A stretch of 64,000 bases of DNA. It comes from Prorocentrum cordatum. Its lineage: Eukaryota. Positions within the stretch are counted from its first letter, which is position 1. Each line of letters begins with the position of its first letter. A program made the translations under genes and the position numbers. Of this stretch, positions 24,121 through 63,922 are shown one piece after another. Under the pieces are notes generated by a model that saw only the letters and a program-made list of their open reading frames with translations, did no database searches and had not been told where the DNA came from. Where the stretch lies: NCBI GenBank assembly GCA_963575745.1, contig CAUYUJ010000150.1, forward strand, positions 1-64,000, written 5' to 3'.

Positions 24121-24850
24121 AGTACTTCTTCGTGGTTCATCGTGGGTGGCGACTCCATGCAGGTTGGTTTCTTTGTCGACTGGGAGTTCAGTAGGGGAGA
24201 GTGCTGTCAGTGCGCTGCCTGCCTGCGTGCCCGAGCAATAGCGCGAAGCAAACAGAGCGAGTGCATTTTGCAGACAATTTGGAGGGGCGGCAGCTCTTTG
24301 ATCCTGCCAAGCGCGCCGCGCGCCTGGAGAGGCTGATCCCCGCACATTCAGTGCAGGAAGCTGCGCCGCAGCGAGCGGCGGAGTCGCGTTTCTACGCCCA
24401 GAGGGGAACGCACGTGGCTGGGCAAGTTGGCCACGGCACCTCTCAGACGCCTGTTTGTTTTGCGAGGGATTGCCCTCGCGTGCTTGCGATAATTTGAGCA
24501 AGCCGGAGGAAGGCTGCCACACTGATAATGTTCTAGCGTCGCCCACAGTTGCGCAAGATGCGCGGGATGATAGCCTGCGCAACCAGAGTGCCAGTGCCGA
24601 GCCAGCCGATCACGGGGGCCTGAGCGCAGCTGTCGGAGGGGGAACGGGGCCCCACGTCCGCGGGGAAGGGATGCCCACCAGTGAGGTGCACACTTGCCCC
24701 CTCGGAGTCCGAGACCCCCTTCTCCAGACAGCCGCCCCATGGTTGAGTCACCGTCAGTTGCAGTTAGACTTGGAGGGGATCAAGTTGCATCGCAATGCCT
24801 GTTCTGCTTTGAAGCTCGCCCCTGCGAGGGAGATGAGTCGAATCAAAAGC

Positions 24851-25290
24851 GTCGTCCTGCGCCCAGACGGGTCCCTTTCGGTTCACGCGGGGTTAGAACC
24901 AGCGTGGGGGCTCGCGGTTGTCGGCCAGGACGTGAACGGTTTCGCTTTTCTCGGGTTCGCTGGGCAGAGACTTGAGGGGTCGATTCCAGGAGAGCTCATA
25001 GGCAGTAAGAAGTCGAGTACTGTTGTGGAAATGGCTGGAATGACCTGGGCGATGCTGTACGCCGCACGTTTCCCAGCCGACGCCCACGTCACCATCGAGG
25101 TTGATAATAAAACGGCTCTCAAGCGCACAGTCGGCGAGTACAGGTCTAAGGAACATAAGGCCTTGGCAATGGTCCTCAATCCGCTGTATGAGGAGTTTTG
25201 CAGGAGGGGAAGGATTGTTTGCAAGCATGTGCGAGCGCACCGAGGTCAGCCATGGAATGATATGGCCGACTGCATAGCTAAGCACATGTC
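24851..25290 (+). pseudogene. RNase H-like domain upstream of the endonuclease
   Basis: VVLRPDGS, AWGLAV, SSTVVEMAG, TIEVDN, HVRAHRGQPWNDMADCIAK. Confidence 0.8.
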
Positions 25291-25499
25291 CAAGCACCCA
25301 CCACCCGACCCCCCAGGCGAGCTTGTGCAGTTGCTGTGCTATGAGCGTGGCCGTGAATGGGCGTGGGATGTGTCGCCGAGTAATCCTGACCGACACGCCA
25401 ACCCCCCGATGGGGGCCAGCGGATTCGAGTTCCACCGCAAGGCCCCAAGTGGCCAGGTGGAGCATCCGGATCAGGAGTGCGGAGAGAACAAGGTCAAGG

Positions 25500-26325
25500 C
25501 CCGAGTTAGTTTCATTGAGGCCACCTTTACTGTGCTCACTCTCAAGGATGAGGAGGAGTGGTACTGTAAGAAGAAGGCCGCTAAAAAGAGGGAGGCGGCG
25601 GTGGCTAGAGCTGCGCACCACAGGGCCCAGTTCAGGCAGTTAGGTTGGTTGTTCGTGGGGGCGCAAGAACGCCGCGCGCCCAAGCGACGCAAGGTCGCGG
25701 AGGATTTCTTGGTCCTGTCTTCGCGGCCTGAAAAGGGGAGTCTTGGGTGTGAGCTCTACGTTAACTTGCAGGCTGTGTACGCGAGAGTTGGCGAGGTTGA
25801 ACAGCGGATCCAGCCCCAGCAAGTCCGCGCGCTGTATTCTGACACCCGCGCCCTCATCGTGGGTTGGCTGTGCAGGCCAAGTTTTTCGACGAAAATGTTG
25901 CTGCGTTGCATGCCCCACGCAGTAAGCACAAGCCGGAGGTGCGAAAGGCGTGGTGGGCCCACGCGCGGCAGTTGATGGCACGATGGAGGCCGACCATCCT
26001 GCTGGCTGATGCGAATGCCCGCGTCGGCAGCGTCGAAGATGAAGGAGTGTGGGGGGGGGGGGGGGGGGGGGGGGGGCAGCAGAAGGAGGATGATAACGGA
26101 GGAGATGTTCGGAGTTGCTTGACCTTGGGGGCCATGTGGCTCTCAACACGGTCTTGCCTCATGACCAGGGGTACACTTGGGTGTCGCATGCGGGCACCAG
26201 ACGTCGACTGGACTATGTGACAACCAGTGTGGCTTGGCGGCAGTACGCCAAAAAGGTCTGGGTTGACTACGCTTTTGATTCTCAGCGACCCAAGGATGAT
26301 CATTTCCCTGTCGCGTGTTGTTTCG
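25500..26325 (+). pseudogene. APE endonuclease domain (frameshifted)
   Basis: ATFTVLTL, VGAQERR, GCELYVN, ALHAP, LADANARVG, TWVS, RLDYV, DDHFPV. Confidence 0.85.
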
Positions 26326-40035: not shown

Positions 40036-43000
40036 TGGGGAGGAGGAGAAGGAGGAGCAGGAGGGAAAGGGGAGGAAGAAGAGTGTTCGACGGTGCCCTC
40101 CTCTATCCTCATCCGCCTGCCTCCCCCTCCGCCTCGGCATCGGGCGCCCTCCAGCCTCCTCTCTGCAGAGCAACCCCGCCGGCGCGGACGGGGAGCGGGC
40201 AGACCAGCGGATCGTTTCGGCTCGGAAAGAGCTGCGCGGCGCCTTCCCGCAGGGGCGGCAGAGAGACCGGATCGGACGGGGCCAGGACGAGGACAGATTC
40301 GTTCCGCAGCGTTCGGAACGCTCTCAGAGCGGTCTGGAAGGCTCTGAGAAGGCCGCGGCACCCGAGACGCCCCCCAGAGCCGCCAGATCTCAGAGATTGT
40401 CGACTTAGCCTCGTCCGAGTTCGTCCCCGTCACGGCTTTGTCCGCTGGGATCTCTGGCATCGGCGCTGGGCCCCTGGCGGCGCCTCCGGCGTCGTCTTTG
40501 GCGCACTCCGCGCTCCGGCGGGGGGTCCAGCGCCGATCGAAGAGATCCGCCTGGGTCTTGGAAAAAGGAGGTTTGTTCGGGGTTGCCAGTGTCGGGCGAA
40601 GAGAACTATGCACAAGCACCGATCTTGGCCCGGCCCATCCTGGGCCCAGGATCGGTGCATGTGCCCTCCTGGCCAAGGCAGGATGGCGTATGCACCGATC
40701 CTGGGCTCAGGGTGGGCCTGACCAGAATCGGTGTATTTGCATAGTTATTGTTCCTCTATAATGTTGCTCCTGACCCAGGGCGCCCCCAGCTTTTTGTTCC
40801 ATTTTGGAGCCCCTGGCGCCGCCTGGGCCTGGTGAGGGGTGCCCTGGAGGCCGTGGGGGGCCTCCTGGGAGATCCTGGGGGCACTTTGGGCCAAGCGCAC
40901 TTCTAGCAACACCTGGTTTGTGCTGTGTTTTTTTCTGCCTATTAGGGCAGCGGAGAGGACGAGCAGCGGGACGAGAGCAAGCCCACGATGCATCGCCGAG
41001 CTTGCAATACAGTCGACCTGTCAGAAGTCCGTTCTGATAAGTCCCTACAGGCCTTCCTCTTCACTACAAGTCGGAGGAGGAAAATGTACCCATACCCCTA
41101 TCTTGGCCCGTTTTCGCCTTTTTGAGACTCCTGGGAGGCCCTCGTCGCCACCGCTGGATTCGCCTCGAAATCCTGGTCCGAACGCACCCGCGAAGAGGTC
41201 CGCGGAATATCGGTATTGGTACCTGGTGGTTTCCCCACGTGAAGTCTTTGCAGGCCTTTCAGGCGGGGAACACGCACAGACACAACGTCGACTCCCAGGA
41301 AAACATTGGAGCATATGGGAAAATGGGGGGGGGGGAAGACGAACACCCAGAAAGCATAGGAAAATATTGGGACTCCTGGGATTTGCGTGTGTACTGATTC
41401 ATCTGTGTGTCCCCGGGCCCCTCGACAGCAAGTCCCTGCAGGCCCCCCGTCTTCGCTGCAGAGAGAGAGCGGGGGGCACTCCCTGGAAAGAGAGAGAGAG
41501 AGAGAGAGAGAGCGGCACTCCCCGGGCCTGCCGGCGTGTTCCTGCGGAGGGGCCGGGCTTCTGGGGAGAGGCGCCCGCGTTTGGCGGCGCGCAGCGAGGG
41601 GGAGGAGGAGGAGGCGGAGGAGGAGGAGGAGGAGGAGGAGGAGGAGGAGGCGGAGGCGGAGGAGGAGGCGGAGGAGGAGGCGGGCAGGGCTCGTGCTGAT
41701 TCCTCCGATGCCATTCGATCCGACTTCGGTGGACTCCGATCCCGATTCGACTCGGCGTCGGATTCCGGTTCTGGCTTCCGATTCCTTCATGGAGGCCTAC
41801 GTACCAGTCTGCCGATTTCCGACGGTTCGACTCCGCCCGACTCGGCTGCCGATTTCCGCCGATTCGATGTATTTCGATCGCCGATTCGACTTATCGATTC
41901 GATTCTGGGTTCTCCTGGGGGTAGAGAGGGAGGGGGGAGGGCTTCTCGGAAGGGGGTCGCTTCTTGGAGCGCCGCGGGCCTTGAATCCACATGCGAGGCC
42001 CGCGCCTTCTGAGAAGCAGCCTCCTTCCGCAAAGCCTCCCTCCCTCCTCCTACCCCCCTCTGCGCGCCGCCCATGAGCAGGAGTTCGAAAAGGCATGACG
42101 GGTTCACCGATGTCCCCGCTTTGAACAAGGGATTGCCGCCCTTCCACGCAACTGCTGCACAAGCCTTGCATTCGGTAGCAAGTCATGGGAGCCTTGTGTA
42201 CCCCATGGATTCCGCCTCTGGCGTCGATTAGCGTCGATCAGCGTCCGGGAGTCGAAGTGGTAGCAGCGTCGACTCAGCGCCGCTCAACGCCGATGTGGCG
42301 TCGACTGGCATCGATGCGCAAGAGCCGACAAGGTGGTATGGGATGCTCCCATGAGCTGGCCGCCGAAGCCTGCACGCTGACCATGCTCACCGAGGACATT
42401 CCGAAGCGGAAGCCCCGTTCTGAGGAAGAGCAGCCCTCCGCCCGCGCAGCTGCTGCGTGTGTTGCGGCATCGTTTTTGTGTTCTGAATGCCACGACGCTG
42501 CAGGCGAGAGCCCCCCAGCGGAGAAGCGGCACGCCTTCCATCCTTTACTCGCCGGCCGTTGAAAGTAGGTATTTTTGGATGCCTAAATCCTAATCTACTT
42601 TAGGCGCCTTCCTACTTCAAGAGTCGAGCGGTTTTCCTTCTTTCCTCCTCTTCAGGGGGCGGCGCGGGCGGAAGTCCAATCTACTTCCAACGCCTTCCTA
42701 CTTCATGTTTCTACCCACTTCTTCCGACCGACGTATGACTGTTCCAAGGTTGTAGGCACGGTGGGCACGGAGCCCTGGTGAGAGACCACTTTTGCAGACG
42801 AGCCGCCGCCTTCAGTCATGGCAAGTCCTGCAGGCTGTCAAGATGATCGCGCGCTGCGCTCTAAGGCGGGAGTCCCATGTTGAAGAGGGACCGCCCTCCA
42901 TCATTGTTTAGCCGCTGCAAGCTTATAAGACGGATATGCGCGGAGCTAAGTCGAGAGCTCCACTTTGCAAGCCACCCATGCTCCGTCCGTATGGCTGCTG

Positions 43001-46000: not shown

Positions 46001-46652
46001 GTCGCGATCAAAAAAGTATCCCCGCCAGCCTATCCAAAACCGATGCCCAGACGAGTTGCCTGATCAAGGGCGTAAGGGAGTAGACAGGGGAAACAGAGGG
46101 CTGGATAAACCGTCGTAGCCCAAGAGGGACAAAAAGGAGGAGGAGCAGGAGGAGGAGGAGGAGGAGGAGGAGGAGGAGGAAGAGGATTTGCATCGTGCCC
46201 GCGTGGAACCACGTTTGTGTTGCAGCGGCCTGCGCGGATTCAGCGGGGGATCCCCCTCCCCGTCGCCCCTGGCGGCCGGCGGGGCGCCACTTCCAGGATA
46301 CTTCGCGCGCTTGGGAAGGGGTGCGGGGAAGGGGTGCCCAGCGGATTCTCGAGGAACCCGCGCTGACTTCCGGAAGGGTCTACTTCTGCAGCGTAGTGAT
46401 GTTCCAGGGAAAGAAAATGGGAAGAGGAAGAGGGGACGGAGGATTCGAGTTAGCGCTGACGCGCTTGACTATAGCCCTGGTCGTGAACCTCGGGGGCCTT
46501 TGGCGGATGCTCGCGCTGAGTTCGGTCCAACCTTCGCAGCCAAGCTGTCACTGCCCCAGCCGCCGCCTCTCCAGCGAGCAGTCCCGTCTCCGTGGTCCGT
46601 GGCGCTCCCCTCTCAAGCATTGCGCGAGCGTGCCGCGGGCGGGCTCTCTGGG

Positions 46653-46685
46653 ATGTGCAGCTTCCTGGTCACGAGTCTGTTGATC
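46653..46685 (+). CDS. AsnB-like gene, coding segment 1 (MCSFLVTSLLI; N-terminal nucleophile Cys)
   Basis: Met-Cys start typical of class II glutamine amidotransferases; joins in frame to SNLTAVN at 51449 through a GATC direct repeat. The frame is open upstream, so an N-terminal extension is possible. Confidence 0.65.
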
Positions 46686-46844
46686 CAGCTGCCTGCGGCA
46701 GGTTCCGCCACCGTTCCAGCTCGGCATTCTGGGTGGCGGCACGGTCGAGGAGGTTTGGGAGGCCATCACAAGTGGCACCTCGTGTCTTCATGCTTGGGCG
46801 CGACGTGACGAGGGTGATGAGAGTTAGGAGGCGGTTGGGAATTA

Positions 46845-47640
46845 TGATAACAAATGATGAGGATAAGGATGAAGACGATGATGATAATGATTATGATGAT
46901 GGTGATGGTGATGACTGTGATGCTGATCTCGATGATGTTGATGATGGTGTTGCGATGGTGATGATGGTGTTGCTGATGCTGCGGATGCTGACAATGACGA
47001 CGATGCCGATAATGACTATGATAATGTGAATTATGATGAGAAGAGGATGAGGATGATGGTGATGATGATGCTGATGATGATGACACTGATGATGCTCATG
47101 ATGCTGCCAATAAGGATGAGTATGTGGTGGCGGTGCATATGATGATGTTCCTTATGATGATGATGCTGATGATGGGATGGTGGTGGTGTTGATGATGCTG
47201 CTGAAGATGACGATTTTGATGTATCCCCACATCCAAAGTGGGTTTTTTGTTGTCGCTGCACCCCCCCCGCGCAGGAGAACACACCCTCTCCGATCACACA
47301 CACGTATCACCATCAGCATGCGTGACATCATCACCACACCATCATCAACATCATTAGCAGCATCACCATCACCATCACTCACTCACTCACTCACTCATTC
47401 ACTCCCACTCACTCCTTCACTCATCATCATCACAATCATCATCGACATCACTCACACACTCACTCACACTCACATTCACTTACACACCGACCATCTTGAT
47501 CACCTTGACCATCACTCGATCACCCACTCACCCACCCACCCACTCACTCATCATCTGCATCATCCTTACCATCATCATCATCATCATCACCACCATCATC
47601 ACTAGTTCAGTCATACACTCACTCACTCACCCACTCATTC
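46845..47640. repeat. (ATG)n, (CAT)n and (CACT)n degenerate microsatellites
   Basis: Direct reading. Confidence 0.85.
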
Positions 47641-47649
47641 GCTTGCTTG

Positions 47650-48185
47650 AATGTGGGGGAGGTATCTGGCAGAAGCCTCGTCTGTGCGTGAATGGCGAGG
47701 AAGTCTCACGCGTGAGCCGTCTCCCTATGGGGCCCGCACCTCATGTTCTTAGTCTGAGCGGGTCCTCCTCGAACCTTTATTTGTCGTCACGTTGGGGCTC
47801 TTGCTGAGGCCTGAATATGGAGGAAGTATCAGGCGGGAGCCTCGTCTGTGAGTGAACTGTGAGGAAGTCGCAGGCGGGAAACCCCTCCCTACAGGGGCCA
47901 GCACTTCATGGTTTTAATCCGAGCGGGTCATTCTCAACCCTGTAGTTGTCGTCACTTTGGGGCTCCCGAGGCTTGAATATGGGGGATGTATCAGGCGGGG
48001 AGCCTCGTCTGTGAGTGAACTGTGAGGAAGTCGCAGGCGGGAGCCCCCCTCCATATGGGGCCCGCACTTCATGTTTTTAATCCGAGCGGGCCATCCTCAA
48101 CCCTGTAATTGTCGTCACTTTGGACTCCCGAGGCTTGAAGATGGAGGAGGTATCAGGCGGGGAGCCTCGTCTGTGAGTGAACTGC
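47650..48185 (+). repeat. ~163-bp tandem repeat (~3.3 copies)
   Basis: GCCTCGTCTGTG at 47675, 47839, 48002, 48163. Confidence 0.9.
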
Positions 48186-48509
48186 GAGTTGCCCCAACGG
48201 CCTGTTCCGCGGGGTTGTCCCAACGGCCGCGCGACGCGGTCATTCGAGAATGCGCCCGCGCTGGCCGAGGCGGCGACGGCGTCGAGGAAAGTCGACGCGC
48301 GCGCTCGTGCAATAGACATGAGGGGGAAGGTGGTTGATGACGAAATAAACAGCAGGAGGGCGAGGCAAGGGCAACGCGGGGACCTGCGCCAGGGTGAGAA
48401 TGATGATGACGCAGGGAAGGCAATACGGGCGCCTCACTAATCGCGAGGACGCCGCTGAGGGTTATTGCCAGATTAGCCGACCGGATTTCCATGTGGGGTC
48501 TTTCCGCCC

Positions 48510-49067
48510 GAATAAGTATGATGACGATGTGGATGCTGATGGTATTGAGGATGCTGAGGATGAGGCTGATGATGTTGATGGTTGTGTTCATGGTGATGAT
48601 GCTGATGTTGATGCTGCTGGTGATGCTGGTGATGATGATGGTCAGGCCGAAGACGTTCGCAATGCGGCCAGGGACGACCATGGTGCCGACGCCACTTGGG
48701 AGGGTGTTTATGTCGATGGTGCTGTTGTTGCCGCTGGTGGTAACAATGGGGGGGGACGGGGCGGGTGAGGATGACGATGGTGGTGATGACGATGATGATG
48801 ATGTGTTTGACGATGAGGGTGGTGCTAATGGTGATACTGATGCCGGTGGTCCTGACACTTATGTAATGACGGCGACGGTGATGCTGATGGTGATGCTGCT
48901 GTTCGTGCTGATGATGTACACGATGACGGTAATACTGATGATCCGGACCATGATGCTAAGATGCTACTGATACTGGTGGTGATGATGCAGCTTCATTTGC
49001 AGATCATGATGGTGCGGACGATGAAGATGATGATGACGGTACGGAGGCTGTATACTTTGATGCCGAC

Positions 49068-49134
<67 letters not shown>

Positions 49135-49425
49135 CTTCTGCCGATGCGGATGATGAAGAAGTTGGTGATTATGATGGCGATGTTGGTAATGGAGGTGCTA
49201 CTGCTGCTGATGCTGATGTTGATTATGCTACCGATGCTGCTGATGCTAGTGGTGGTTATGATGCAGATGCAGCTGGTATTGATGATTCTGGCGTCGGCGA
49301 TATCGACGATCATGGCGGTGATGCTGGTGGCGGTGATGGGGATACGAGGAGGAGGAGGAGGAGGAGGAGGAGGAGGAGGAGGAGGAGGAGGAAGAAGAGG
49401 AGGAGGATGAGGAGGAGGAGGAGGA
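48510..49425. repeat. Degenerate (ATG)n followed by (GGA)n
   Basis: Direct reading. Confidence 0.9.
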
Positions 49426-50195
49426 GTGTCGTCGCGTGGGGCACCTGTTGCCTTCACGTATTCGAGGAGCTCGCATGGAATGCGTTTGGGTTGTTTTGGG
49501 GTTGGTTTGCCCTCTGGCGGGCAATTGTGGGGGTCTCCCGGAGCCGTCGTGGACCGTCTTGGGGCCTTCTTCGCCGTGTTGGGAATCTCGTGGGCCGTCT
49601 TGAGGGGCCCTCTTGGCAGTATGGTGGGTGTCTGGGGGCTGTCGTGGGGCCTTCTAGGCTCCACCTTGGGGCCGTTGACAGGTCGTCTGAGGCCATTTTG
49701 GGTCGCATGTGATGCCGGTTTCGGGCCGTTGTGGTTGCCTCTTCTTCTGGGCCATTTTGGGGAGCCTCTTGGGGCGTCGTTGAGCCATCGTGGATGCGTT
49801 TTGGGCCGCCTTGCGCTGACGGGGCATTATTTCATCGAGGATAAAGGAACCCCTAACCCTAATAGCAGAAGGAAAACGTGGCCACTCTTACGTCCCCGTC
49901 CGTGCATTAGGGTTGAGCAAACTGGGCGGTTTGGCCTGATACACTTGCAGAACAACAAAAAACACCTTCTCTAATGTCTGTGTCCCCTCTAACTTTGGTC
50001 CCCTCCCACAGGGTTACGGTCATTTGTTTGAGAGTCGCCATTCGAAAACCCAATGGACAGCAATGAGTTTGGCTTCGTCGGACCCTGTTGGAGGTTCTTT
50101 CGCGGTATCTTGGGCCGCGGCTCGGGACGCGGATCCATAAGTCAGTGTTAGGGTTGTTGTTGTTAAGTTTTCATGATTGAAAAATAACTATGGTT

Positions 50196-50316
50196 GACCC
50201 CCCTTCTGTGACCATTGTGTTTTGTTATATTGGAGTGCTTCCCCCAGGGCTCGCACTCTTTTTACCAGGGAAGGTCACTGGGCTCAAACTGCGCTGTTGG
50301 CCCCCGGGTTACAACG

Positions 50317-50362
<46 letters not shown>

Positions 50363-51200
50363 CGGCTGCCGCCTGAGACTTCCTCACCATTTAGCCAGGA
50401 CCACCGCTCCCGCCTGAGACTTCCTCGCATTTTACTCAGGAATCGCGCTCTCGCTTGGCATTTCCGGACAATTCATTCAGGGATCGCTCTCTCGGCGCTC
50501 TGGAGTCGCGTTCTTGCGTTGGAAATCCCACCAATTTGCTCAAGCGCCGCGCTTCCGACACTAACGTACCCAGGAGTCGCGCTCACGCTTAGGACTCCCC
50601 CACAGCTTGCTTAGGAATCGGGATCTCGCTGCCCTTCGTGGCCCCGTTGCAGCCCTTCGTGGCTCCCTTGCTGCCCTTCGTGGCCCGTATATGTATGCCC
50701 TTCGTGGCCCCAGCTCGTTCGCGCCCGTCGTGGCCCCAAATGCATTGTCTTCGTGGCCCCGTTGCCGTCCTTCGTGGCTCCCTCCGTGTCCTTCGTCCTT
50801 CGTGGCCCCGTTGCTACCCTCAGTGGCCCTTTCGTTATCCTCTGTGGCCCCGCATTATCTGCCCTTCGTGGCCGCATACGCATGCCCTTCGTGGCCCCGC
50901 TGTCGCCATTCGTGGCCCCCTTCCTGCCCGTCGTGGCCCCGCTCTCGCTTTCGCTTGTCGTCGTCTTCGTCGTCGTCGTCGTCGTGGTCGGTTCCCTGTC
51001 CGTTCCTCTTGGAGTCGGGTTGACGCCGATCAGCGCTGCCGTTGGCCAGGCAGACGGTCCGCGGCCGCCCCGCCGTTTGCCGGGGCCTGCTTGCAGGGAA
51101 GAAAGCTATACCCCCCAAAAGGGGTACGACCGAAGACGAATATGGCGGGTAGTGAGGGTTTGGAAAATACACGTTGGATGACACTCGGGCAGATGAGAGC
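50196..51200 (+). repeat. Dispersed element with an internal ~21-bp GCCCTTCGTGGCCCC array; paralog at 62529-63830
   Basis: Shared blocks GGCCCCCGGGTTACAAC, TTAGGACTCC, AGGAATCGGGATCTCGCTGCCCTTCGTGG, GCAGGGAAGAAAG. Confidence 0.85.
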
Positions 51201-51232
51201 GAACAGTCTTACAATTACTGTTGTTGTGTTGA

Positions 51233-51282
<50 letters not shown>

Positions 51283-51448
51283 TTGCTGTTTTCGAGGGAT
51301 CGTGGCCTCGGGAGGGTGGGGGGAAGGGCATGCAGAAGTCCGCGAGCGGAGGGGGGAGGGGCCCCCTTCATTCAAAGACAGTAAAACTGCCAGACAGCAC
51401 TTGGCACCCCACCGCGCCTCAACGTGCCAGTGGGCACGGTGGCGGATC

Positions 51449-51919
51449 TCCAACCTGACCGCCGTCAACAGGTTCCTGCAGCGACGCGGCCCTGATTCCA
51501 CGCAGGTTGTACAGCATGGCCGCTTCACTTTTGTTCACAATTTGTTGCACATGACTGGGGAGCGTATTGCACAGCCGTTCGTTGACGGGGACGTGGTTGC
51601 ATTGTACAATGGCGAGATCTACAATTCACAGCTTGTGCCAGCGGGGTATCCAGGGAGGCATCGTTACCGTTCGGATGGAGAATGTCTCATACCGTGCTAC
51701 AACAAACTCGGTTCGAGCTTTCCGAAGGTCCTGGACGGCGAGTTTGCTTTGGTGCTAATCGATTTCTCCAAGAGCATCATTATCATGGCAACCGATGTCT
51801 TTTCGACGAAACCGCTGTGGTATTCTCTGCACGAAGGTTTCCACGCTGCCTCCTACCAGTCAGCCCTGCTTGGACTGGGCCTTCCACCCGGATCGGTCAA
51901 GATGGCCGACCCCAACCAG
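51449..51919 (+). CDS. AsnB-like gene, coding segment 2 (GATase II domain)
   Basis: RRGPD, HNLLHMTG, QPF, YNGEIYN, SDGE, LDGEFA, DVFSTKPLWY. Ends at AG|GC donor (51920). Confidence 0.9.
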
Positions 51920-52413
51920 GCGTTGAGAGGGTACAGTCAAAGGTAGTCGCAATGACGATTGACCTTGGTAAGGTACCCTTGCACTCTCATCCTCCTGTTC
52001 CCCTCTCTTCTCAGATCCCCCTCCTCGTCATGAGAGGGGTTGTACGTGCGGACGTCTTACCAAGGTGCATCGTACCCCTGTGCGCTCCATCGCTGGCGAA
52101 CCTGACAGCAGTGAAGGATGGCTTCGCATGCATTCGGCATACGTTCTCGCCCCCTCGTGACGGGCAGCTTCCTTTTCCCAGGCGCCCGCAGGCACCTCCC
52201 AAGTATTCCCGAGGAGGAGGAGGAGGAGGAGCCCGCTCGGCGTCTGAGTCGACCCAGGCCGCCGAGAGGGCTCGACCCCCGAAAATGCGCGCCCGACGGC
52301 CGAGGAGGGCACCTGGCACTGGGCGGTGTCGGCGCCTGCTTTCACGGCGTGTCGCAGCCTCGTGCGTCTCAAGATCGGCGGGTCTGCAGGGTTCGGTACG
52401 ATCGAATTGGGTA

Positions 52414-52598
52414 CGGTAGGTTCGCGTCGTGTCGACTGGCGGCGACCCCGCCGCGGGCGTTCAAGGTTGAACGCCGCCAGTGGCCCAGAATCGGCCTGCA
52501 TGGAACGATCGGGCGATCGGAAAGCCGATCGTTCAAGGTTGAACGATCGACGCGGTGTCAGAAACCAACGCCAGGGTCGACACGACACGAACCTGCCG
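52414..52598. mobile_element. MITE family M1 nested in an M2-like element inside the AsnB intron
   Basis: TIRs CGGTAGGTTCGCGTCGTGTCGAC / GTCGACACGACACGAACCTGCCG. Confidence 0.8.
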
Positions 52599-52814
52599 TG
52601 CGGAAAGAGTGGGTACGAAGGCCGACGGCACTTTTTGTTCATTTTGAGCAGGACTCACTGTCGGTGTCGCCGCGGACGACGTCCGATCGAGACAGAAGGT
52701 CATTTGTTGCTGGGCATCGTACCCAGTTTTTCCGTACCCGTTCCGGGCGTCCAAAAGGGTGTTCTCGATGTTTCTTTGAGCGAGCGCCACTTCTGCCTCT
52801 CACCCTCCTCCGAG

Positions 52815-53344
52815 GTGCTGGTGCTCCAGCTGGAGGGTTCCTCGGCCACGCCCGTCGCGCGGCAAACCCTGCACGAGTTCGATCTGCGGCAGTTCAAGTC
52901 GTCCACTGCAGACTGGCAGCGGGCGTTCCGACGGGCGGTGTGGAAGAGGGTCGCGGGCTCCAACCACCCTGCGTTCGTGGGGCTGAGCAGCGGCTACGAC
53001 TCGGGGGCGCTCCACTTGGCCCTGGAGCTCGAAGCGCCGGCGCACTCGGTCGGCTACTTCACGATCGGCGCCGAGGAGTCGGCCTTCCTGGTGGACGAGC
53101 GCATCAAAGCGTTCAATAAATCCGTCTCACGAGCCTGGTGGGTTGAGATGTCTTTGCCGGAATTCCAGGCGGAGAAGGAGTGGTTGATGGAGAACGCCGA
53201 GCCCTTCCAGTACGGCAAGAGCAACTGGGCTGGAGAGTACGTGTACGAGGACGGTGCGGCCATCGGCTTGTCGGCCATCTTCAGGCGCTGCCGCCGTGCA
53301 GGCATGCTGGTCTACCTCTCTGGCGCCGGGGCCGACGAGATTAT
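52815..53344 (+). CDS. AsnB-like gene, coding segment 3 (synthetase domain, PP-loop)
   Basis: Pyrimidine-rich AG acceptor at 52813-52814; AVWKR, GLSSGYDSG, VYLSGAGADEI. Confidence 0.9.
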
Positions 53345-54748
53345 CCGGGTGCCTGCGACGAGTCCGCCACCGCGCCAGCGAAGCATTCCGTTTGGCGACC
53401 CTTCGATCCCCGACCAGGAGGCCGTCACGCGTGACACCTCGCGTCCCCACATCTCACGGGGGCTGTCCTGGGGCTGTCCTGGGGCTGTCTCGGGGTCCCA
53501 CGTGGCAGTCTTGGGACCATCTTGGGGCCCAGATGAGCCGTCTCAGGGGTCCTCTTGGCCGTCTTGGGGGTCCCTGGGGGCCGTCGCGGGGCATTATTTG
53601 TGCGTTATTGGGCTTTCTGGAGCCGTCTTGGTCCCCTCTAGGGGCCATCTTGGGCCAACGTCCTGAGGGTCCTCTTCGGGCTCTGAGTGGGCCCATTCGG
53701 CGTGAGAAGACCCCAAGTGGACCGATCTTCGACCGAATTGCGTGGACAGCGAGACACGGTTGAAACTCCTACTGGGAATCACTCTGTTTGGCCTCCTGAG
53801 GGGCCTCCTGGACAGCCTCTCGTCGGTATCTCGGAGCCTGTTGGAGGCCTCGTGGGGCCTACTAGGGCGGTTCTTGGTGGTTTTTCTGTGCGTCTTGATG
53901 CTACACGCCGGTCGCTAAAAGTATGTATTTTTGGGTTCTCGGATCCCAATCTACTACAAGCGCCTTCCTACTTCAAGAATCGACACGCTTTTGCTGTGTT
54001 TTGTTATTCCCTGGGGGGGGCCTGGACCCAATCAACTTAATCCGCCTTCCTACTTCATGTTTTCACCTACTTCTTCCGACCGACGTGTATCATGGGCCAC
54101 CATGGTGACCTTCGTGGCCTTCCTTGGCCGTCCTCGAAGCCGTGGAGAGAGCTCTGGAGAGCCCCAGAGGAGGCGGCAGAGCGGCCCCAGGAGCACACTC
54201 GGAAGGGCGTGCGGTGCTCACGCGCGAGCGTGCCGAGGGGGGTGGGTGGGACCCGCTGGAAAGACTTACGGCAGCCCTGCCAGACAGCACGGGCGCCCTC
54301 GAGGGCGCGAAGTGATTCGCGCTTCGCGGTTCGGCTCCGATTCCTCCTCATCCTCCCCTTCTCCCTTGGGAGGCGGCGCGAGAGCGCGAAGTTATTCGCA
54401 CTTCGCGCTTCGCGCAGCGCGAAGCGCGAAGTGGCTTACATCAAGCAGTGGCGAAGCGTCCTGGCTCGCCTGTAGCCCTGCCAAACAATGTTCTAAGAAC
54501 CTCTTGTGGTTTCCACGAGATGTTCTTAGAGGCTCTCTGGTTGATATTGTCTTGTTTATCACATCGGGCTTATGTTCCAAGAACATTGTTTTGTTCTTAG
54601 AAGAACATCTTGGGGTTCTAAGAACAGTTTGGAGTACGACTATGGGAATGCCGGGACGGTCGTTCCCTGCTCAATTACAGCAAGCAGCCCTACCAGACAG
54701 CATTTGGCATTTTGCCACGCCTCAGCGTGCCAGGGGGGACGATGGTAG
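53345..54748. mobile_element. Insert 3 in the AsnB-like gene (AT-flanked family)
   Basis: Starts CCGGGTGCCTGCGACGAGTCCGCCACCG and ends CCAGACAGCATTTGGC...CGTGCCAGGGGGGACGATGGTAG; AT on both sides. Confidence 0.7.
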
Positions 54749-54750
54749 AT

Positions 54751-55381
54751 ATCAGATTACGGCTTCCGCGGGGAGAAGCTCTTCCCTCACAGCTCGTTCG
54801 GTGGGAAGTTTCCGGATGACCTGGCTTCGCTCTTCCCGTGGCAGTCCGTTTTCTTGGGCACGCAGCGGGATTATCTCATGAAAGAGGAAGTGGTAGCCGG
54901 CGGACATGGGCTCGAGGCGCGCTACCCTTTTTTGGATCGCTCTGTGGTGCAGGAGTTCCTGTGGCTCTCCGCAGAGGCGAAGAACGAGCTGTACAAGAGG
55001 CCAGTCCATGACTTCTTGACGCAGGCGTGCTACCCGTTCGCAGAGGGCAAGAAGGAGGGGTTCGCTGCGAGCCACAACCTGAAGCCGTCTGGGCCCACCC
55101 AGATGTCGGTGTCCTTCGATGCCATGGCGGAGCCCTGGGCTGCAGCGCCACCGGCGCCGACGCTCGTCGAGGCCGCAGGCAGCGCAGGTTCCCTCGACGG
55201 CGCATGCGAGGGCGATGCCTGGCGCTCTGCGCGGTCGCGGCTGGTGACCTTCCTGCTGATGCCAGAGAGCAAGGCCGCAGCCGTGCAGGGCCTGGCGGCC
55301 GCTCTGCTCGACGCGCTGCAGCACGGCCTTCGGGCGGCGCCCGGCTGCGACCTCGGCCAGCTCTGCATGCACCTCTTCTCG
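54751..55381 (+). CDS. AsnB-like gene, coding segment 4
   Basis: SDYGFRG, FPDDL, YLMKEE, HGLEARYPFLD, KKEGF, then a C-terminal extension. Confidence 0.9.
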
Positions 55382-55561
55382 GGGGCGGCCAAGAGGGGGG
55401 CGATGACTAGGGGTGGGGGGATATCAGGGCGTGGGCCATGATATTCCCTCAGATTTCACGGCGCCTCAGGTCCCTGGCGCCCGCTCCTGGGCCGCGCACT
55501 TGCCGCCGGCCATGACTTGCGCCCCTCCCTCCCTCTTGGACGCGCCCCTCTTCGCCGCCCC
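55382..55561. mobile_element. Insert 4: 180-bp element with ~21-bp TIRs flanked by CG
   Basis: GGGGCGGCCAAGAGGGGGGCG versus CGCGCCCCTCTTCGCCGCCCC (2 mismatches). Confidence 0.75.
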
Positions 55562-55563
55562 CG

Positions 55564-55767
55564 ATCTTCCTGCTGCTGCTGTCGCCGCCGGAGGCCCGGG
55601 AGGCCCCCCTGCGCGACGGCAGGTGGGCGCCGCTGGCGGCGCTGCCGTGGGTCGCCGCGTCGCGCTCGGGGTGGCCAGTGTTCGCGCTGCTGAGGCGCCT
55701 GGCCGCGCAGTCGACGGGGGGGGCCCCCGCGGCCGCGCTGCCGCACGCGGCGGTCGCGCGGCTCAGC
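55564..55767 (+). CDS. AsnB-like gene, coding segment 5 (C-terminal extension)
   Basis: IFLLLLSPP...LPWVAASRSGWPVFALLRRL...VARLS; in frame with both neighbours after insert removal. Confidence 0.6.
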
Positions 55768-56126
55768 TAGAAGGCCACACGCGAACCCTGCCCCGCCACC
55801 CTACGATTCTAGGGGAGCGAAAAGTGACATAACACATAACAACTCGGAGGTCCGCGCGGATTTCTCGGATCGGCGCTGGGGCCCCCCGGCGGCGCCTCCG
55901 GCGCCGCCCCTGGCGCGCTTCGCGCGCCAGGGAGGGGGGTCCAGCGCCGATCCGACAAATCCGCGCGGACCTCCGAGTTTTAATGTTTTTGTCACTTTTC
56001 GGTTCCCTAGATTCCCAGGGTGGGAGGTGGGGTTCGCTTCGCTCGGGCCCTCCCGAGCAAAGCGAACCCCACGGACCCCCTTTAAAGTTGTGGGGTGGTG
56101 GGGCGGGGCCCGCCTGTGGCCTCCTA
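55768..56126. mobile_element. Insert 5: 359-bp element with ~37-bp TIRs (TAG...CTA), 5-bp TSD TCAGC and an internal long hairpin
   Basis: TAGAAGGCCACACGCGAACCCTGCCCCGCCACCC versus the reverse complement of GGGTGGTGGGGCGGGGCCCGCCTGTGGCCTCCTA; TCAGC at 55763-55767 and 56127-56131. Confidence 0.8.
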
Positions 56127-56131
56127 TCAGC

Positions 56132-56380
56132 GGCTGCGGCGGGCACGTGGTCGGGGAGGAGGAGCTCGACGTGCCGCTCGCCGCGCTGGCGGCCAGCGCG
56201 AACGCGGCCGCCGCGGCGGCGGCGCAGGGCCCGTTCGCGGAGTTCTGGTCGCGCCGGCCGCTGGGGGAGGTGCTGGCCAGCGCCCGCATGTGCGAGGCGT
56301 TTGCCGTGCTGGAAGTCCTCAGCGAGGAGCACTACCGAGTGAACCTCGCAGACGCCTGGCAGCTCCTGGAATTCAAATGA
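56132..56380 (+). CDS. AsnB-like gene, coding segment 6 (last; stop TGA)
   Basis: GCGGHVVGEEELD...NLADAWQLLEFK*; GC3-rich codons. Confidence 0.6.
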   Translation, partial: GCGGHVVGEEELDVPLAALAASANAAAAAAAQGPFAEFWSRRPLGEVLASARMCEAFAVLEVLSEEHYRVNLADAWQLLEFK

Positions 56381-57571
56381 TCCTCCTCATCCCGCTGGTG
56401 CCCTGCTCTCCCTCCGCCCGTTGTCCTCTTTTTGGGCATCCTGGGATGCCCTCGTCGCTACCGCTGGATTCGCCTTGAACTCCTGGTCAGAACGCACCCT
56501 GGTAGACGTCCGGAGAGTAGCGGTATCAGTGCATTTTGGTTGCCCCAGTTTCTCCTGCTGCTGCTCCTCCGTTTCTCGTGCCTGGTGGTTCCTCCCCCTC
56601 ATCTCTCCTTTCTCATTCTCCCTCCTATTATCCTCCCTTCTCCTTCCTTCCGCCTCCCTCGGCCTCCCTCCTCCTCTTCCTCCTCCTCCTCCTCCTCCTC
56701 CTCCTCCTCCTCCTCCTCCTCCTCCTCCTCCTCCCCCCCTCCCTCCTCCTCCTCTTCCCTCAGCCTCCTCCTCCCTCCTCCCCCTTCTCCCTGCTCCTCC
56801 TCCTCCTTCTTCTCCCTCAGTCCCTCCTCCATCCCTTTCTTGTCCCGCTCCTGCCCCTGACGCTAATCATCACACTGTTGACTTCTCATTTCTGTATTTA
56901 TTGTTGGCCCCCCTGCCTGGTGCACATTGCATTTGTACGATCAAGTTGCTCCTCCCCGGGGTCGTGCCCGGTTCTTTTTATCAGGGAAATCTTCCTCCTC
57001 AAGCCGCGCTGCTGGGCGCCGAACTCTAACAGCAATGCTCCCCCGCAGTGTACTCCAGAATCGCGCTCTCGCGTGGCACCTCCTCGCAGTGTGCTGCTGC
57101 GCCGTGCCCCCCAAACACTCTGGAATCGCGCGCTCGTTGTGGATGTCCTCGCGCTCTGCCTGGGAGTCGCGCTCCCGCTCGGACCCGTCCCTGCGGCTCG
57201 TGCAGGACCCGACGCTGCAGCGACCCGCCCGCTCGACCCGGCCGCCGGCGGCCCGCCCGCCAGAGTTGCCCGCGTGCGGGGCCGCCCGCCCGGCTCGCCC
57301 GTCTGGTTCGTCCGCTCGTGCTCTCGTCGTCGTCGTCGTCGGAGGAGGAGGAGGGGGAGGAGGAGGAGGAGGAGGAGAAGGAGGAGGAGGAGTGCTCCAT
57401 CCTTCTCCCTCCCCCATGTCTCTTCCCTCCCTCCCCCTCTGCCTCTGCTTCAAAGGCTGCGCCAGCCACAAGCGGCAGGCAGGGAAGACGTGCCCCCAAG
57501 GCGGGCATCGAAGGTTTGGGATGTACGTTTTGAACTGCACGCGAGCAGATAAGAATGAACAGTCCTAAACT

Positions 57572-57766
57572 GATTGTTGTTGGTGTTGTTGTTGATGGTA
57601 TTGTTGTTGGTGGTGTTGTTGTTGCTGTTGTTGTTGTGGTGATGGTGGTGGTTGTTGCTGCTGCGGCTGTTGTTATTGTTGATGGTGTTGTTGTTGTCGT
57701 TGTTGTTGCTGCTGTTGTTGTTGTCGGTGTTGTTGTTGCTGTTGCTGTTGTTGCTGCTGCTGCTGC

Positions 57767-57802
<36 letters not shown>

Positions 57803-57838
57803 CGTTGTTGTTGCTGTTGTCGTTGTTGGTGGTGGTGA

Positions 57839-57887
<49 letters not shown>

Positions 57888-57908
57888 GGTGTTGGTGTTG
57901 TTGTTGTT

Positions 57909-57959
<51 letters not shown>

Positions 57960-57967
57960 GGTGGTGG

Positions 57968-58022
<55 letters not shown>
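57572..58022. repeat. (TTG)n/(TGG)n microsatellite
   Basis: Direct reading. Confidence 0.95.
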
Positions 58023-62175: not shown

Positions 62176-62500
<325 letters not shown>

Positions 62501-62528
62501 CTCATTCTTAAAGAATAATTGTTGTTGA

Positions 62529-63830
62529 TCCCCCCCACCAGTGCACATTGTTTTTTTCAATTGAAGTGCCCCCCCCCAGGGCTCGCACCTTGTTTTTTGT
62601 CCAGGAAAATATTCCTGCTCAAACTTGCCCCCTGGCCCCCGGGTTACAACAACAACGGCTCCCGCTTGAGACTCCCTCACAATTTAGCCAGGACCCCCGC
62701 TCCCGCCCGAGACTTCCTCGCATTTTATTCAAGAATCGCGCTCTCGCTTGGGACCTCCTCACGATTTATTCAGGAATCGCTCCTCCTGCGTTCTGGAGTC
62801 GCGCTCTCGCTGGAGATTTGCTTGCAATTTACTATAAAATAGCGCCCTTGCGTTGGAAATTCTTACAATTTACTCCAGCGCCGCGCTCCCGACACCCAGG
62901 CAACCAGGAGTCGCGCTCACGCTTAGGACTCCTTCACAGATTACCTAGGAATCGGGATCTCGCTGCCCTTCGTGGCCCCGTTGCAGCCCTTCGTGGCCCC
63001 CTCGCTTTGTTTCGTGGCCCCATTGCAGCCCTTCGTGGCCCCCTCGCTTTGTTTCGTGGCCCCGTTGCAGCCCCTCGTGGCCTCCTCGTTGCCCTTCGTG
63101 GCCCTGTTGCAGCCCTTCGTGGCCCCCTCGCTTTGTTTCGTGGCCCCGTCGCAGCCCTTCGTGGCCCCCTCGCTGACCTTCGTGGCCCCGTTGCAGCCCT
63201 TCGTGGCACCGTTGCAGCCCGTCGTGGCCCCTCGCTGCCCTTCGTGGCCCCGTTGCAGCCCTTCGTGGCCCACTCGCTTTGTTTCGTGGCCCCATGTATG
63301 TATGCCCTTCGTGGCCCCCGCTCGTTCGCGCCCGTGGTGGCCCCATATGCATGCCCTTCGTGGCCCCGCTGTCGCCCTTCGTGGCCCCCTCGCTGCCCTT
63401 CGTGTCCCCGTTGCTGCCCTCAGTGGCCCCGTCCATTCCCTTCGTGTCCCCGCTGTTGCCCTTCGTGGCCTACTTCGTGTCCTTCGTGGCTCTGCTGTCG
63501 TTCTCTCTCGCTCTCGCTTTCGCTCGTCGTCGTCGTCGCCGTCGCCGTCGTTGCCGTCGTCGTCGACGTCGTCGTCGTCGTCGTCGTGGTCGGTCCCCTG
63601 TCCGTCCCTCTTGGGGTCGGGTCGACGGTCCGCGGCCGCCCCGCCGATCAGCGCTGCCGCTGGCCACGCCGACGGTCCGCGGCCGCCCCGCCGCTTGCCG
63701 GGGCCCGCTCTGCAGGGAAGAAAGGTATACCCCCCAAGAGGGGTTCGATCGAAGACGAAGAGGGCGGGTATCGAGGGTTTGGGCAATTCGCGTTATTCGA
63801 CACTCGAGCACATAAGGGCGAAGAGTCTTA
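62529..63830 (+). repeat. Paralog of the 50196-51200 element with an expanded 21-bp array, followed by (TTG)n to the window end
   Basis: Colinear shared blocks with 50196-51200. Confidence 0.85.
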
Positions 63831-63888
63831 AACTGGTTGTTGTTGGTGTTGTTGTTGTTGTTGGTGTTGGTGTTGTTGTTGTTGTTGG

Positions 63889-63922
<34 letters not shown>

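What the first reader, a model, noticed from the sequence alone, without database searches (positions are those of the whole stretch)
46653..56380. Stop-free AsnB-like gene interrupted by four transposon-like inserts lacking canonical splice pairs; precise removal restores the frame
Seen: joining 46653-46685, 51449-51919, 52815-53344, 54751-55381, 55564-55767 and 56132-56380 gives 2118 nt (705 aa plus stop) with no internal stop. The junctions read naturally: CSFLVTSLLI/SNLTAVN, GADEII/SDYG, HLFS/IFLL, ARLS/GCGG. Only 51920-52814 is an ordinary GC-AG intron. The other four gaps are bounded by short direct repeats (GATC/AT, AT, CG, TCAGC) and inverted repeats, and no register of the precise excision gives GT/GC/GA...AG. 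The inserts look old (mismatched TIRs, nested repeats, up to 4.8 kb), yet the coding parts keep the catalytic motifs (N-terminal Cys, NGEIYN, SSGYDS, GADE, RYPFLD). Established: non-canonical introner-type introns with inverted and direct repeats are described in the parasitic dinoflagellate Amoebophrya. Inference: several unrelated DNA-transposon families may be removed precisely at RNA or DNA level, guided by end-pairing. The alternative is a recently killed gene copy.
Basis: partly seen in the sequence, partly recalled or inferred. Interest (0 to 1): 0.85.

Follow-up and report, generated by a model that had tools for sequence, protein, structure and literature searches.

The report
Transposon-derived introns without splice motifs
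A working enzyme gene of the red-tide alga Prorocentrum cordatum is interrupted by four transposon-like inserts that lack the usual intron end signals, yet they are missing, cut out to the base, from its RNA, as was known before only from a distant parasitic relative.

Summary
The six segments give a stop-free AsnB-like ORF. The window matches a Prorocentrum cordatum protein at 100%.

Assembled contigs from 4 of 4 public runs, from 4 studies and one on record as polyA RNA, join the exons and skip the inserts. The fourth is 9 nt off: the true skip is 191 nt, bounded by TCTTC.

No register gives GT/GC/GA..AG for any of the four. The product is 702 aa and aligns without gaps to 7 dinoflagellate orthologs at every junction. 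The deposited model, built on canonical sites only, loses conserved residues.

Two inserts are MITE-like, with a 5-nt duplication plus terminal inverted repeats. The other two belong to one family without inverted repeats, and a third copy lies in an environmental contig.

Best reading: RNA-level removal of transposon-derived non-canonical introns, as in Amoebophrya, here in a free-living core dinoflagellate (0.78). End-pairing explains two or three inserts, not all four. An unannotated uninterrupted copy is not excluded. One run carries a 7-nt footprint-like variant that stays unexplained.

The parts
46653..46685 (+). Exon 1 (Met-Cys start, 9 to 11 codons; the last 4 nt GATC are shared with the far end of insert 1)
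   Evidence: ORF; collinear with the MCSFL.T N-termini of 7 orthologs; all 4 contigs leave the window sequence at 51445 and carry 24 to 70 more letters. The joint itself was not read letter by letter.
46682..51448 (+). Insert 1: non-canonical intron, 4763 nt removed, flanking repeat GATC. Registers are GA..CG, AT..GG, TC..GA, CC..AT, CA..TC. It is a family-A element swollen by nested repeats and microsatellites.
   Evidence: Its 11-nt internal complement to the 3' end is only marginal (score 24, equalled by the best of 200 shuffles). End duplex: 9 of 300 shuffles pair as well.
51449..51919 (+). Exon 2 (class-II glutamine amidotransferase domain)
   Evidence: GATase_7 1.6e-17; contig pieces 51445-51917 in 4 of 4 runs; 100% identity to P0001.
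51920..52814 (+). Intron 2: ordinary dinoflagellate GC..AG|G intron, 895 nt, boundary repeat AGG
   Evidence: No end pairing (145 of 300 shuffles pair as well).
52815..53344 (+). Exon 3 (start of the Asn_synthase domain, with the SSGYDS loop)
   Evidence: Two synonymous differences in run X18.
53343..54750 (+). Insert 3: non-canonical intron, 1406 nt removed, flanking repeat AT. Registers are AT..AG, TC..GA, CC..AT. It is a family-A element.
   Evidence: No terminal inverted repeat. No end pairing beyond chance (149 of 300).
54751..55378 (+). Exon 4 (rest of the Asn_synthase domain and the start of the C-terminal extension). It ends inside TCTTC at 55373-55378, not at 55381.
55374..55569 (+). 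Insert 4: MITE-like non-canonical intron, 191 nt removed. 5-nt duplication TCTTC. Inverted repeats 55379-55402 and 55541-55564 (22 of 24). No register has a G start or an AG end.
   Evidence: The RNA fold closes at the duplication, z -3.7. End duplex 0 of 300 shuffles.
55570..55767 (+). Exon 5
55763..56131 (+). Insert 5: MITE-like non-canonical intron, 364 nt removed. 5-nt duplication TCAGC. Inverted repeats 55768-55804 and 56090-56126 (30 of 37). The only register with an AG end is CT..AG. A nested inner palindrome lies at about 55796-56023.
   Evidence: runs X5 and X9 show the 364-nt skip; X1 skips 357 nt instead. Also. Fold -317 kcal/mol, z -19.7. End duplex 0 of 300 shuffles.
56132..56380 (+). 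Exon 6 with the stop codon (conserved C-terminal motif shared with orthologs)
   Evidence: Contigs end or branch at 56360-56369.

Best explanation
This is the single annotated copy of a conserved dinoflagellate AsnB-like amidotransferase gene in Prorocentrum cordatum. It carries one ordinary GC-AG intron and four transposon-derived non-canonical introns. Two of these are MITE-like, with a 5-nt target duplication plus terminal inverted repeats. The other two are members of one dispersed family without inverted repeats, flanked by AT or GATC. After transcription, each insert is removed together with one copy of its flanking repeat. The mRNA therefore reads exactly like the uninterrupted site and encodes a 702-aa protein collinear with its orthologs.

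Shown: the joined form exists in four independent data sets, and the inserts lack GT/GC/GA..AG pairs.

Inferred: removal happens at RNA level. For inserts 4 and 5, the terminal stem puts the two cut sites at the foot of a helix. For family A, the conserved termini carry whatever signal is used. The machinery is most likely a spliceosome with relaxed end recognition, as proposed for Amoebophrya. A non-spliceosomal cut-and-ligate route is not excluded.
For:: one contig of about 2.1 kb per run in 4 of 4 runs from 4 studies (X18 on record as polyA RNA) bridges the junctions 51917>52813, 53342>54749 and 55373>55565. X5 and X9 also bridge 55762>56127. There are 0 differing letters in X1, X5 and X9 and 2 in X18, both synonymous. 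Unique intron parts (53448-53805) have zero depth in all four runs.

17 of the 24 listed runs hold 0.20-0.23 of the sampled words (3 more hold 0.12-0.17, 4 next to none). The exon share of the stretch is 2109 of 9851 = 0.21.

no register gives a canonical pair for the four inserts.

gap-free collinearity with 7 orthologs at all 5 junctions.

only one P. cordatum protein (P0001, a cluster of 1, on 1 contig) matches exon 2 above 72% identity, among proteins of 86 to 2000 aa.

inverted repeats and stems abut the duplications of inserts 4 and 5.

family A has a third copy with different flanks in an environmental contig.

(passages of PMC7789003): the same anatomy, direct repeats of 3-5 nt plus inverted repeats of 8-20 nt with non-canonical ends, is removed from RNA in Amoebophrya.
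Against: No DNA reads of the same strain were examined, so an unassembled or unannotated uninterrupted copy, or empty-site DNA molecules, cannot be excluded. Three of the four laid runs have no library type on record. Contigs cannot show unspliced precursors or rare isoforms. Run X1 carries a different joint at insert 5 (357 nt skipped). It leaves both TCAGC copies with TA between them. That looks like a cut-and-paste excision footprint and shifts the frame of the conserved C-terminus. Insert 3 has no end pairing, so no single structural rule covers all four. Exact restoration of the pre-insertion sequence for three unrelated element types is also what an insert-free allele would give.
Confidence: 0.78

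Rival explanations
1. The transcripts come from an uninterrupted allele or paralog that is unassembled or unannotated. The copy in the window is a silent, recently disrupted gene.
For: Removal restores the empty-site sequence exactly for three unrelated element types, which an insert-free copy would give trivially. The genome paper reports extensive gene duplication (passages). Other contigs share the 3' part 56203-56483 at higher depth, and the main contigs branch at 56360-56369. The X1 joint looks like an excision footprint in DNA.
Against: No second P. cordatum protein matches exon 2 closely in the 86-2000 aa range. The exons are 100% identical to the contigs over 2.1 kb, although the locus has had time for four insertions, nested insertions in inserts 1 and 5, and diverged inverted repeats. 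The ORF and all motifs are intact. A second genotype (X18) differs only by 2 synonymous changes.
Confidence: 0.13
2. The inserts are excised from DNA in the transcribed chromatin, as with ciliate internal eliminated sequences. The assembly would then show a non-expressed form.
For: The removal is precise and bounded by duplications. The X1 form (TCAGC, TA, TCAGC) resembles a transposon excision footprint.
Against: From general knowledge, dinoflagellates have one nucleus and no germline and soma split is known, and DNA and RNA come from the same vegetative cells. Family A has no inverted repeats for a transposase to act on. Insert 1 is 4.8 kb long and full of nested repeats.
Confidence: 0.04
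3. These are ordinary spliceosomal introns that use nearby canonical sites, as in the deposited gene model.
For: The deposited model P0001 uses only GT/GC/GA..AG sites. The annotation pipeline allowed only those sites.
Against: 0 of 4 runs show the model's joints. P0001 lacks exon 1 and loses conserved residues at three junctions that all 7 orthologs keep.
Confidence: 0.02

Closest known systems
Non-canonical introns and introner elements of Amoebophrya A25 and A120 (Farhat et al. 2021, PMC7789003; passages read)
   Same: They are removed from mRNA and have no fixed terminal dinucleotides. Direct repeats of a few nt overlap the boundaries. Inverted repeats form a hairpin that joins the exon ends. 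They are repeated and transposon-like, they carry no transposase, and classical gene finders fail on them.
   Different: The host here is a free-living, photosynthetic core dinoflagellate with a genome of several gigabases, not a parasitic syndinian. The inserts are 191 to 4763 nt long, whereas the Amoebophrya analysis was limited to 40-1000 nt. The inverted repeats are longer (24-42 nt and 37 nt, against 8-20 nt). One family (inserts 1 and 3) has no inverted repeat, and insert 3 has only a 2-nt repeat.
Introner-like elements of Polarella glacialis and Symbiodinium (Roy et al., bioRxiv 10.1101/2020.10.14.339549; part 1 of 4 read)
   Same: Transposons insert into coding sequence and are removed together with one copy of the target duplication. 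Classes 4 and 5 have a 4-nt duplication of the form GHNN that serves as the 5' site, and GATC at insert 1 fits that form.
   Different: Those elements always end up with GT/GC/GA..AG. Here the other end is non-canonical (CG at insert 1, AT at insert 3), or both ends are (insert 4).
Nonconventional introns of euglenids (review PMC11282704; passages read)
   Same: They have non-canonical junctions, terminal pairing that brings the ends together, duplication-like repeats at the borders, a proposed MITE origin and very variable length.
   Different: They occur in an unrelated lineage. Their defining short pairing at +4..+6 and -8..-6, and their excision as circles, were not tested here.
MITE-derived non-canonical introns of the tunicate Fritillaria borealis (as summarised in PMC11282704; passages read)
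   Same: Transposon insertions with non-canonical ends are neutralised by removal from the RNA.
   Different: They occur in an animal. The review describes their splicing as spliceosomal with a characteristic preceding exon motif, and no such motif is seen here.
Identically repeated intron boundaries of dinoflagellates (Mendez et al. 2015, PMC5032977; passages read)
   Same: 2 to 9 nt are repeated at both intron borders and kept once in the mRNA.
   Different: Those repeats always contain GG or AGG and are compatible with G..AG splicing. Here that holds for intron 2 only.

Membership tests
Amoebophrya-type non-canonical introns / introner elements | Absent from mature mRNA at a junction supported by RNA data | tested here: met
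   the joints of inserts 3 and 4 appear in 4 of 4 runs, one of them polyA RNA on record. The in-frame joint of insert 5 appears in 2 of 4 runs, neither with a library type on record. For insert 1 the break at 51445 appears in 4 of 4 runs, but its partner was not read.
Amoebophrya-type non-canonical introns / introner elements | Terminal dinucleotides differ from the canonical pair in every possible register | tested here: met
   none of the 5, 3, 6 and 6 registers of inserts 1, 3, 4 and 5 gives GT/GC/GA..AG.
Amoebophrya-type non-canonical introns / introner elements | Direct repeat of 3-5 nt overlapping the exon-intron boundaries | tested here: met
   GATC (4 nt), TCTTC (5 nt), TCAGC (5 nt). 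Insert 3 has only AT (2 nt), so 3 of 4 inserts meet the feature.
Amoebophrya-type non-canonical introns / introner elements | Inverted repeat of 8-20 nt between the two intron ends, forming a hairpin | tested here: inconclusive
   Inserts 4 and 5 have longer inverted repeats. Insert 1 has an 11-nt complement set 22 nt inward, which is marginal. Insert 3 has none (149 of 300 shuffles pair as well).
Amoebophrya-type non-canonical introns / introner elements | Occurs as repeated families | tested here: inconclusive
   Family A has 3 copies, two here and one in L001. No second full copy of insert 4 or of the outer element of insert 5 lies in the 64-kb window. Only the inner palindrome of insert 5 recurs.
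Canonical dinoflagellate spliceosomal intron (G[T/C/A]..AG, usually followed by G) | G at +1 and AG at the 3' end in one register of the observed joint | tested here: not met
   met by intron 2 only (GC..AG|G). The four inserts fail.
Introner-like elements with a GHNN duplication (Polarella classes 4 and 5) | A 4-nt duplication GHNN gives the 5' site and the element end gives AG | tested here: not met
   Insert 1 has GATC but ends in CG. Insert 3 ends in AG but starts with AT.
MITE (miniature inverted-repeat transposable element) | Short, no ORF, terminal inverted repeats directly flanked by a target duplication | tested here: met
   Inserts 4 (186 nt between the repeats) and 5 (359 nt). Multi-copy status and mobility were not shown.
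Ciliate-type internal eliminated sequences (DNA-level excision) | The joined form is present in DNA of the expressing nucleus | not testable with these tools
   No DNA run holding the locus was offered (no run holds more than 0.23 of the words).
Asparagine synthase B family (class-II amidotransferase plus PP-loop synthetase), the host gene | N-terminal Cys after Met, a GATase domain, an Asn_synthase domain | tested here: met
   orthologs score 139 bits against TIGR01536, below the equivalog cut-off of 267. So this is a family member of unknown substrate, not a proven asparagine synthase.

The most novel reading that the evidence does not exclude
Core dinoflagellates have a removal system that does not depend on splice motifs. 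It erases transposon insertions of unrelated families from coding RNA exactly, from one flanking repeat to the other. It may be non-spliceosomal, with cuts at the foot of the terminal helix followed by ligation. It would then be widespread, and invisible in all annotations restricted to GT/GC/GA..AG. That would help explain how these genomes tolerate massive transposon loads and gain introns.
Probability: 0.3. Interest if true: 0.85.

Novelty: new member of a known kind. Interest (0 to 1): 0.62.

Why it matters
Introns whose ends follow no dinucleotide rule were described as unprecedented in the parasite Amoebophrya. If they also occur in Prorocentrum cordatum, several things follow.

- The trait is either old in dinoflagellates or arises readily.
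- It can be studied in an axenic, culturable alga for which genome, transcriptome and proteome data already exist.
- Gene models built with GT/GC/GA..AG only are wrong wherever such introns occur. Here the deposited model loses the catalytic N-terminal Cys exon and conserved residues at three junctions.
- The locus shows transposons becoming introns without bringing or finding splice sites.

This rests on one gene. Genome-wide frequency is unknown.

Tried and rejected
- The window's own genome is not held, so copy number and paralogs could not be searched in DNA.
- Exon 1 and insert 1 were left out of the laid stretch because of their long microsatellites. The exon 1-2 joint is therefore inferred.
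- A 35-nt exon-2 word found nothing in metagenome contigs.
- Rfam found no RNA family in the window.
- Pfam on 135 ORFs outside the gene found no second conserved gene on which to test other introns, only weak retroelement hits.
- Earlier scan notes held nothing relevant.
- A Helitron reading of family A was considered: 5' TC, host A^T in one register, a 6-bp hairpin 8 nt from the 3' end. It was dropped as unproven. The 3' end is not CTRR, and all three copies are equally well read as flanked by a 2-nt AT duplication.
- A common TC..GA register fits inserts 1, 3 and 4 but not insert 5, and could be chance.
- The fold of the whole of insert 3 gave no convincing closing stem.
- Literature searches found no report of introns outside G[T/C/A]..AG in Prorocentrum or other core dinoflagellates. 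Subscription journals are not covered. Of the genome paper's supplements, only two files were held as text.
Full report
**1. Observation**

Pfam places a class-II glutamine amidotransferase domain in exon 2 (GATase_7, 1.6e-17). It places Asn_synthase in exons 3 and 4 (1.6e-5 and 1e-3).

A protein search with exon 2 returns one 100% match, P0001. NCBI names it an unnamed partial protein of Prorocentrum cordatum, on a 117,595-nt contig. Next come dinoflagellate orthologs at 60-74% identity from Polarella, Durusdinium, Effrenium, Symbiodinium and transcriptomes. The window's G+C content of about 59% agrees with the 59.7% reported for that genome (passages of PMC10666404). No whole genome is held for the window.

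**2. Are the inserts absent from RNA?**

A search of public runs with 46600-56450 listed 24 runs. Of these, 17 hold 0.20-0.23 of the sampled words, 3 hold 0.12-0.17 and 4 hold next to none. The exons make up 2109 of 9851 nt, or 0.21.

I laid four runs from four studies on 51300-56650. X18 is on record as polyA RNA. X1, X5 and X9 have no library type on record. Insert 1 was left out of the laid stretch because of its long microsatellites.

Each run has one contig of 1798-2123 nt that bridges the gaps:
- 51917>52813 (895 nt skipped): 4 of 4 runs.
- 53342>54749 (1406 nt skipped): 4 of 4 runs.
- 55373>55565 (191 nt skipped): 4 of 4 runs.
- 55762>56127 (364 nt skipped): X5 and X9.
- 55766>56124 (357 nt skipped): X1 only.
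- X18's contig ends at 55664, before insert 5.

The contig pieces have 0 differing letters in X1, X5 and X9. X18 has 2, at 52904 and 53081, and both are synonymous serine codons. Unique intron sequence (53448-53805) has zero depth in all four runs, so these data do not contain the genomic locus.

All four contigs stop matching at 51445 and carry 24, 34, 46 and 70 further letters that are not the intron. This fits exon 1 plus leader. Those letters were not shown, so the exon 1-2 joint is inferred from this break, from the shared GATC and from the orthologs.

**3.

Three of the four unusual junctions are exact. The fourth is not 55381/55564. It is 55373(+0..5)/55565(+0..5), with the repeat TCTTC.

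The transcript-supported CDS is 2109 nt, or 702 aa. It aligns without any gap to 7 orthologs at all five junctions.

**4. Boundaries**

I listed every register allowed by the shared letters.
- Insert 1: GA..CG, AT..GG, TC..GA, CC..AT, CA..TC.
- Insert 3: AT..AG, TC..GA, CC..AT.
- Insert 4: TC..GA, CT..AT, TT..TC, TC..CT, CT..TT, TC..TC.
- Insert 5: TC..TA, CA..AT, AG..TC, GC..CA, CT..AG, TA..GC.

None is GT/GC/GA..AG. Intron 2 is GC..AG followed by G.

Insert 1 can have a dinoflagellate-type GA donor, and inserts 3 and 5 can have an AG acceptor. But no insert has both, and insert 4 has neither.

**5. What the inserts are**

*Insert 4.* It is 186 nt between two copies of TCTTC. Its inverted repeats start directly after the duplication. 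They match at 22 of 24 positions, or 42 nt at 76%.

*Insert 5.* It is 359 nt between two copies of TCAGC, with inverted repeats matching at 30 of 37 positions. A second palindromic element is nested inside it, at about 55796-56023.

As RNA, both close into a stem whose foot is at the duplication. Insert 4 folds with z -3.7. Insert 5 folds at -317 kcal/mol with z -19.7.

*Inserts 1 and 3.* They have no terminal inverted repeat, but they share both termini, so they are one family, here called family A.

A pattern from their common 3' end found one hit in metagenome contigs, L001. It is a third copy of 806 nt with the same two ends and unrelated flanks. Its last 57 nt are 89-90% identical to both window copies.

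All three copies are flanked by AT..AT. This extends to GATC in insert 1 and L001, and reads TATC/GATA at insert 3. So either 2 nt are duplicated, or 4 nt.

Insert 1 is the same element enlarged to 4.76 kb by tandem arrays and by repeats that recur elsewhere in the window.

Both window copies of family A lie in the sense orientation in this one gene. No other copy of the 3' terminus lies in the 64-kb window.

**6. Does end-pairing guide the removal?**

I compared the best duplex between the first and last 60 nt plus flanks with 300 shuffles.

| Intron | Shuffles pairing at least as well |
|---|---|
| Insert 4 | 0 of 300 |
| Insert 5 | 0 of 300 |
| Insert 1 | 9 of 300 |
| Insert 3 | 149 of 300 |
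| Intron 2 (canonical) | 145 of 300 |

Pairing is a good explanation for the two MITE-like inserts and a weak one for insert 1. It is no explanation for insert 3. For family A, the conserved termini are the more likely signal.

**7. Rival: an uninterrupted copy**

Among proteins of 276-2000 aa and 86-275 aa that match exon 2, P0001 is the only P. cordatum entry. It is a cluster of one, on one contig. The next-best hit across the two searches is at 74% identity. So no uninterrupted paralog is annotated.

A dead copy that had time for four insertions, nested insertions and diverged inverted repeats would be expected to differ from the expressed copy. Yet the exons are identical over 2.1 kb and the frame is intact.

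Three facts keep this rival alive.
- No DNA reads were examined.
- Other contigs share the 3' part 56203-56483 at higher depth, and the main contigs branch at 56360-56369.
- X1's joint at insert 5 keeps both TCAGC copies with TA between them. This is the classical look of a cut-and-paste excision footprint. It adds 7 nt and destroys the conserved C-terminus.

Whether X1's form is a genomic footprint in that culture or a shifted RNA cut is unexplained.

**8. The deposited model**

P0001 maps to 51431-51925, about 52815-53348, 54776-55396, 55603-55752 and 56162 onward. It lacks exon 1 with the Met-Cys start. It replaces SDYGFRGE by R, drops LLLLSPPEAREA, and trims the C-terminal part.

The genome paper's pipeline recognised only GT, GC and GA donors with AG acceptors. 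It looked for introner elements only inside introns predicted that way, and found them in 2.4% of introns (passages of the main text and of two supplement files).

**9. Comparison with what is known**

The closest match is the non-canonical introns and introner elements of Amoebophrya A25 and A120. More than 60% of their introns lack GT-AG, and a subset has 3-5-nt direct repeats and 8-20-nt inverted repeats that form a hairpin (passages).

Introner-like elements of Polarella and Symbiodinium insert with a duplication that supplies one splice site, but they always give GT/GC/GA..AG (part 1 of 4).

Euglenid nonconventional introns and Fritillaria MITE-derived introns work in a similar way in unrelated lineages (passages).

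The repeated intron boundaries of Mendez et al. always include GG or AGG (passages).

My searches and a 2024 review (passages) gave no report of such introns in Prorocentrum or any other core dinoflagellate. The review assigns boundaries other than GT/GC/GA-AG to Amoebophrya only. Subscription journals are outside the library.

**10. Verdict**

The finding is real and largely as described. It is best read as a new occurrence of a known kind: transposon-derived introns without canonical ends that are removed precisely from RNA. The new setting is a free-living core dinoflagellate, where published models miss them.

The host protein belongs to the asparagine-synthase family but scores below the equivalog cut-off. 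Its exact reaction is unknown.

Confidence in RNA-level removal is 0.78. The machinery is not identified.

Noticed in passing
window 55762-56127 (run X1): Run X1 joins 55766 to 56124 (357 nt skipped) instead of 55762 to 56127. It keeps both TCAGC copies with TA between them, which is footprint-like, adds 7 nt and shifts the frame. It is the only form among X1's contigs.
   Followed up: partly
window 56203-56490: The last exon and the start of the 3' UTR have more depth than the main contig (290 and 180 against 72 in X1). Several loose ends lie at 56174 and 56203, and the main contigs end or diverge at 56360-56369. Other transcripts therefore share this part.
   Followed up: no
window 55796-56023, with partial copies at 40440-40550 and 12029-12117: The palindromic element nested in insert 5 is a high-copy repeat in RNA contigs (summed depth up to 6932 in X1), with many different flanks.
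   Followed up: partly
window 54164-54700 (inside insert 3): A block of CGCGAAG-type palindromes and AAGAAC inverted repeats has very high depth in RNA contigs (up to 3672 in X1) and many loose ends at 54432-54441.
   Followed up: no
L001 744-1559 (metagenome contig): This is the third family-A copy, 806 nt, flanked by CGGATC on both sides. The frame stays open across the flanks if the element and one repeat are removed, but the flanks match no known protein family and were not searched further.
   Followed up: partly
window 50155-51290 and 62486-63910: A repeat of about 1.1-1.4 kb (74-78% identity), containing a 21-nt tandem array, lies both inside insert 1 and near the end of the window.
   Followed up: no
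window 18735-19679 (-) and 24302-25972 (+): There are weak endonuclease/exonuclease/phosphatase and RNase H matches, likely remains of a non-LTR or LTR retroelement. No other conserved gene was found in the window.
   Followed up: no
window 46854-47214, 49068-49134, 49346-49426, 56667-56815, 57574-58022: Long trinucleotide arrays (ATG, GAT, GAG, CCT, TTG; up to about 150 units) lie inside insert 1 and just downstream of the gene.
   Followed up: no
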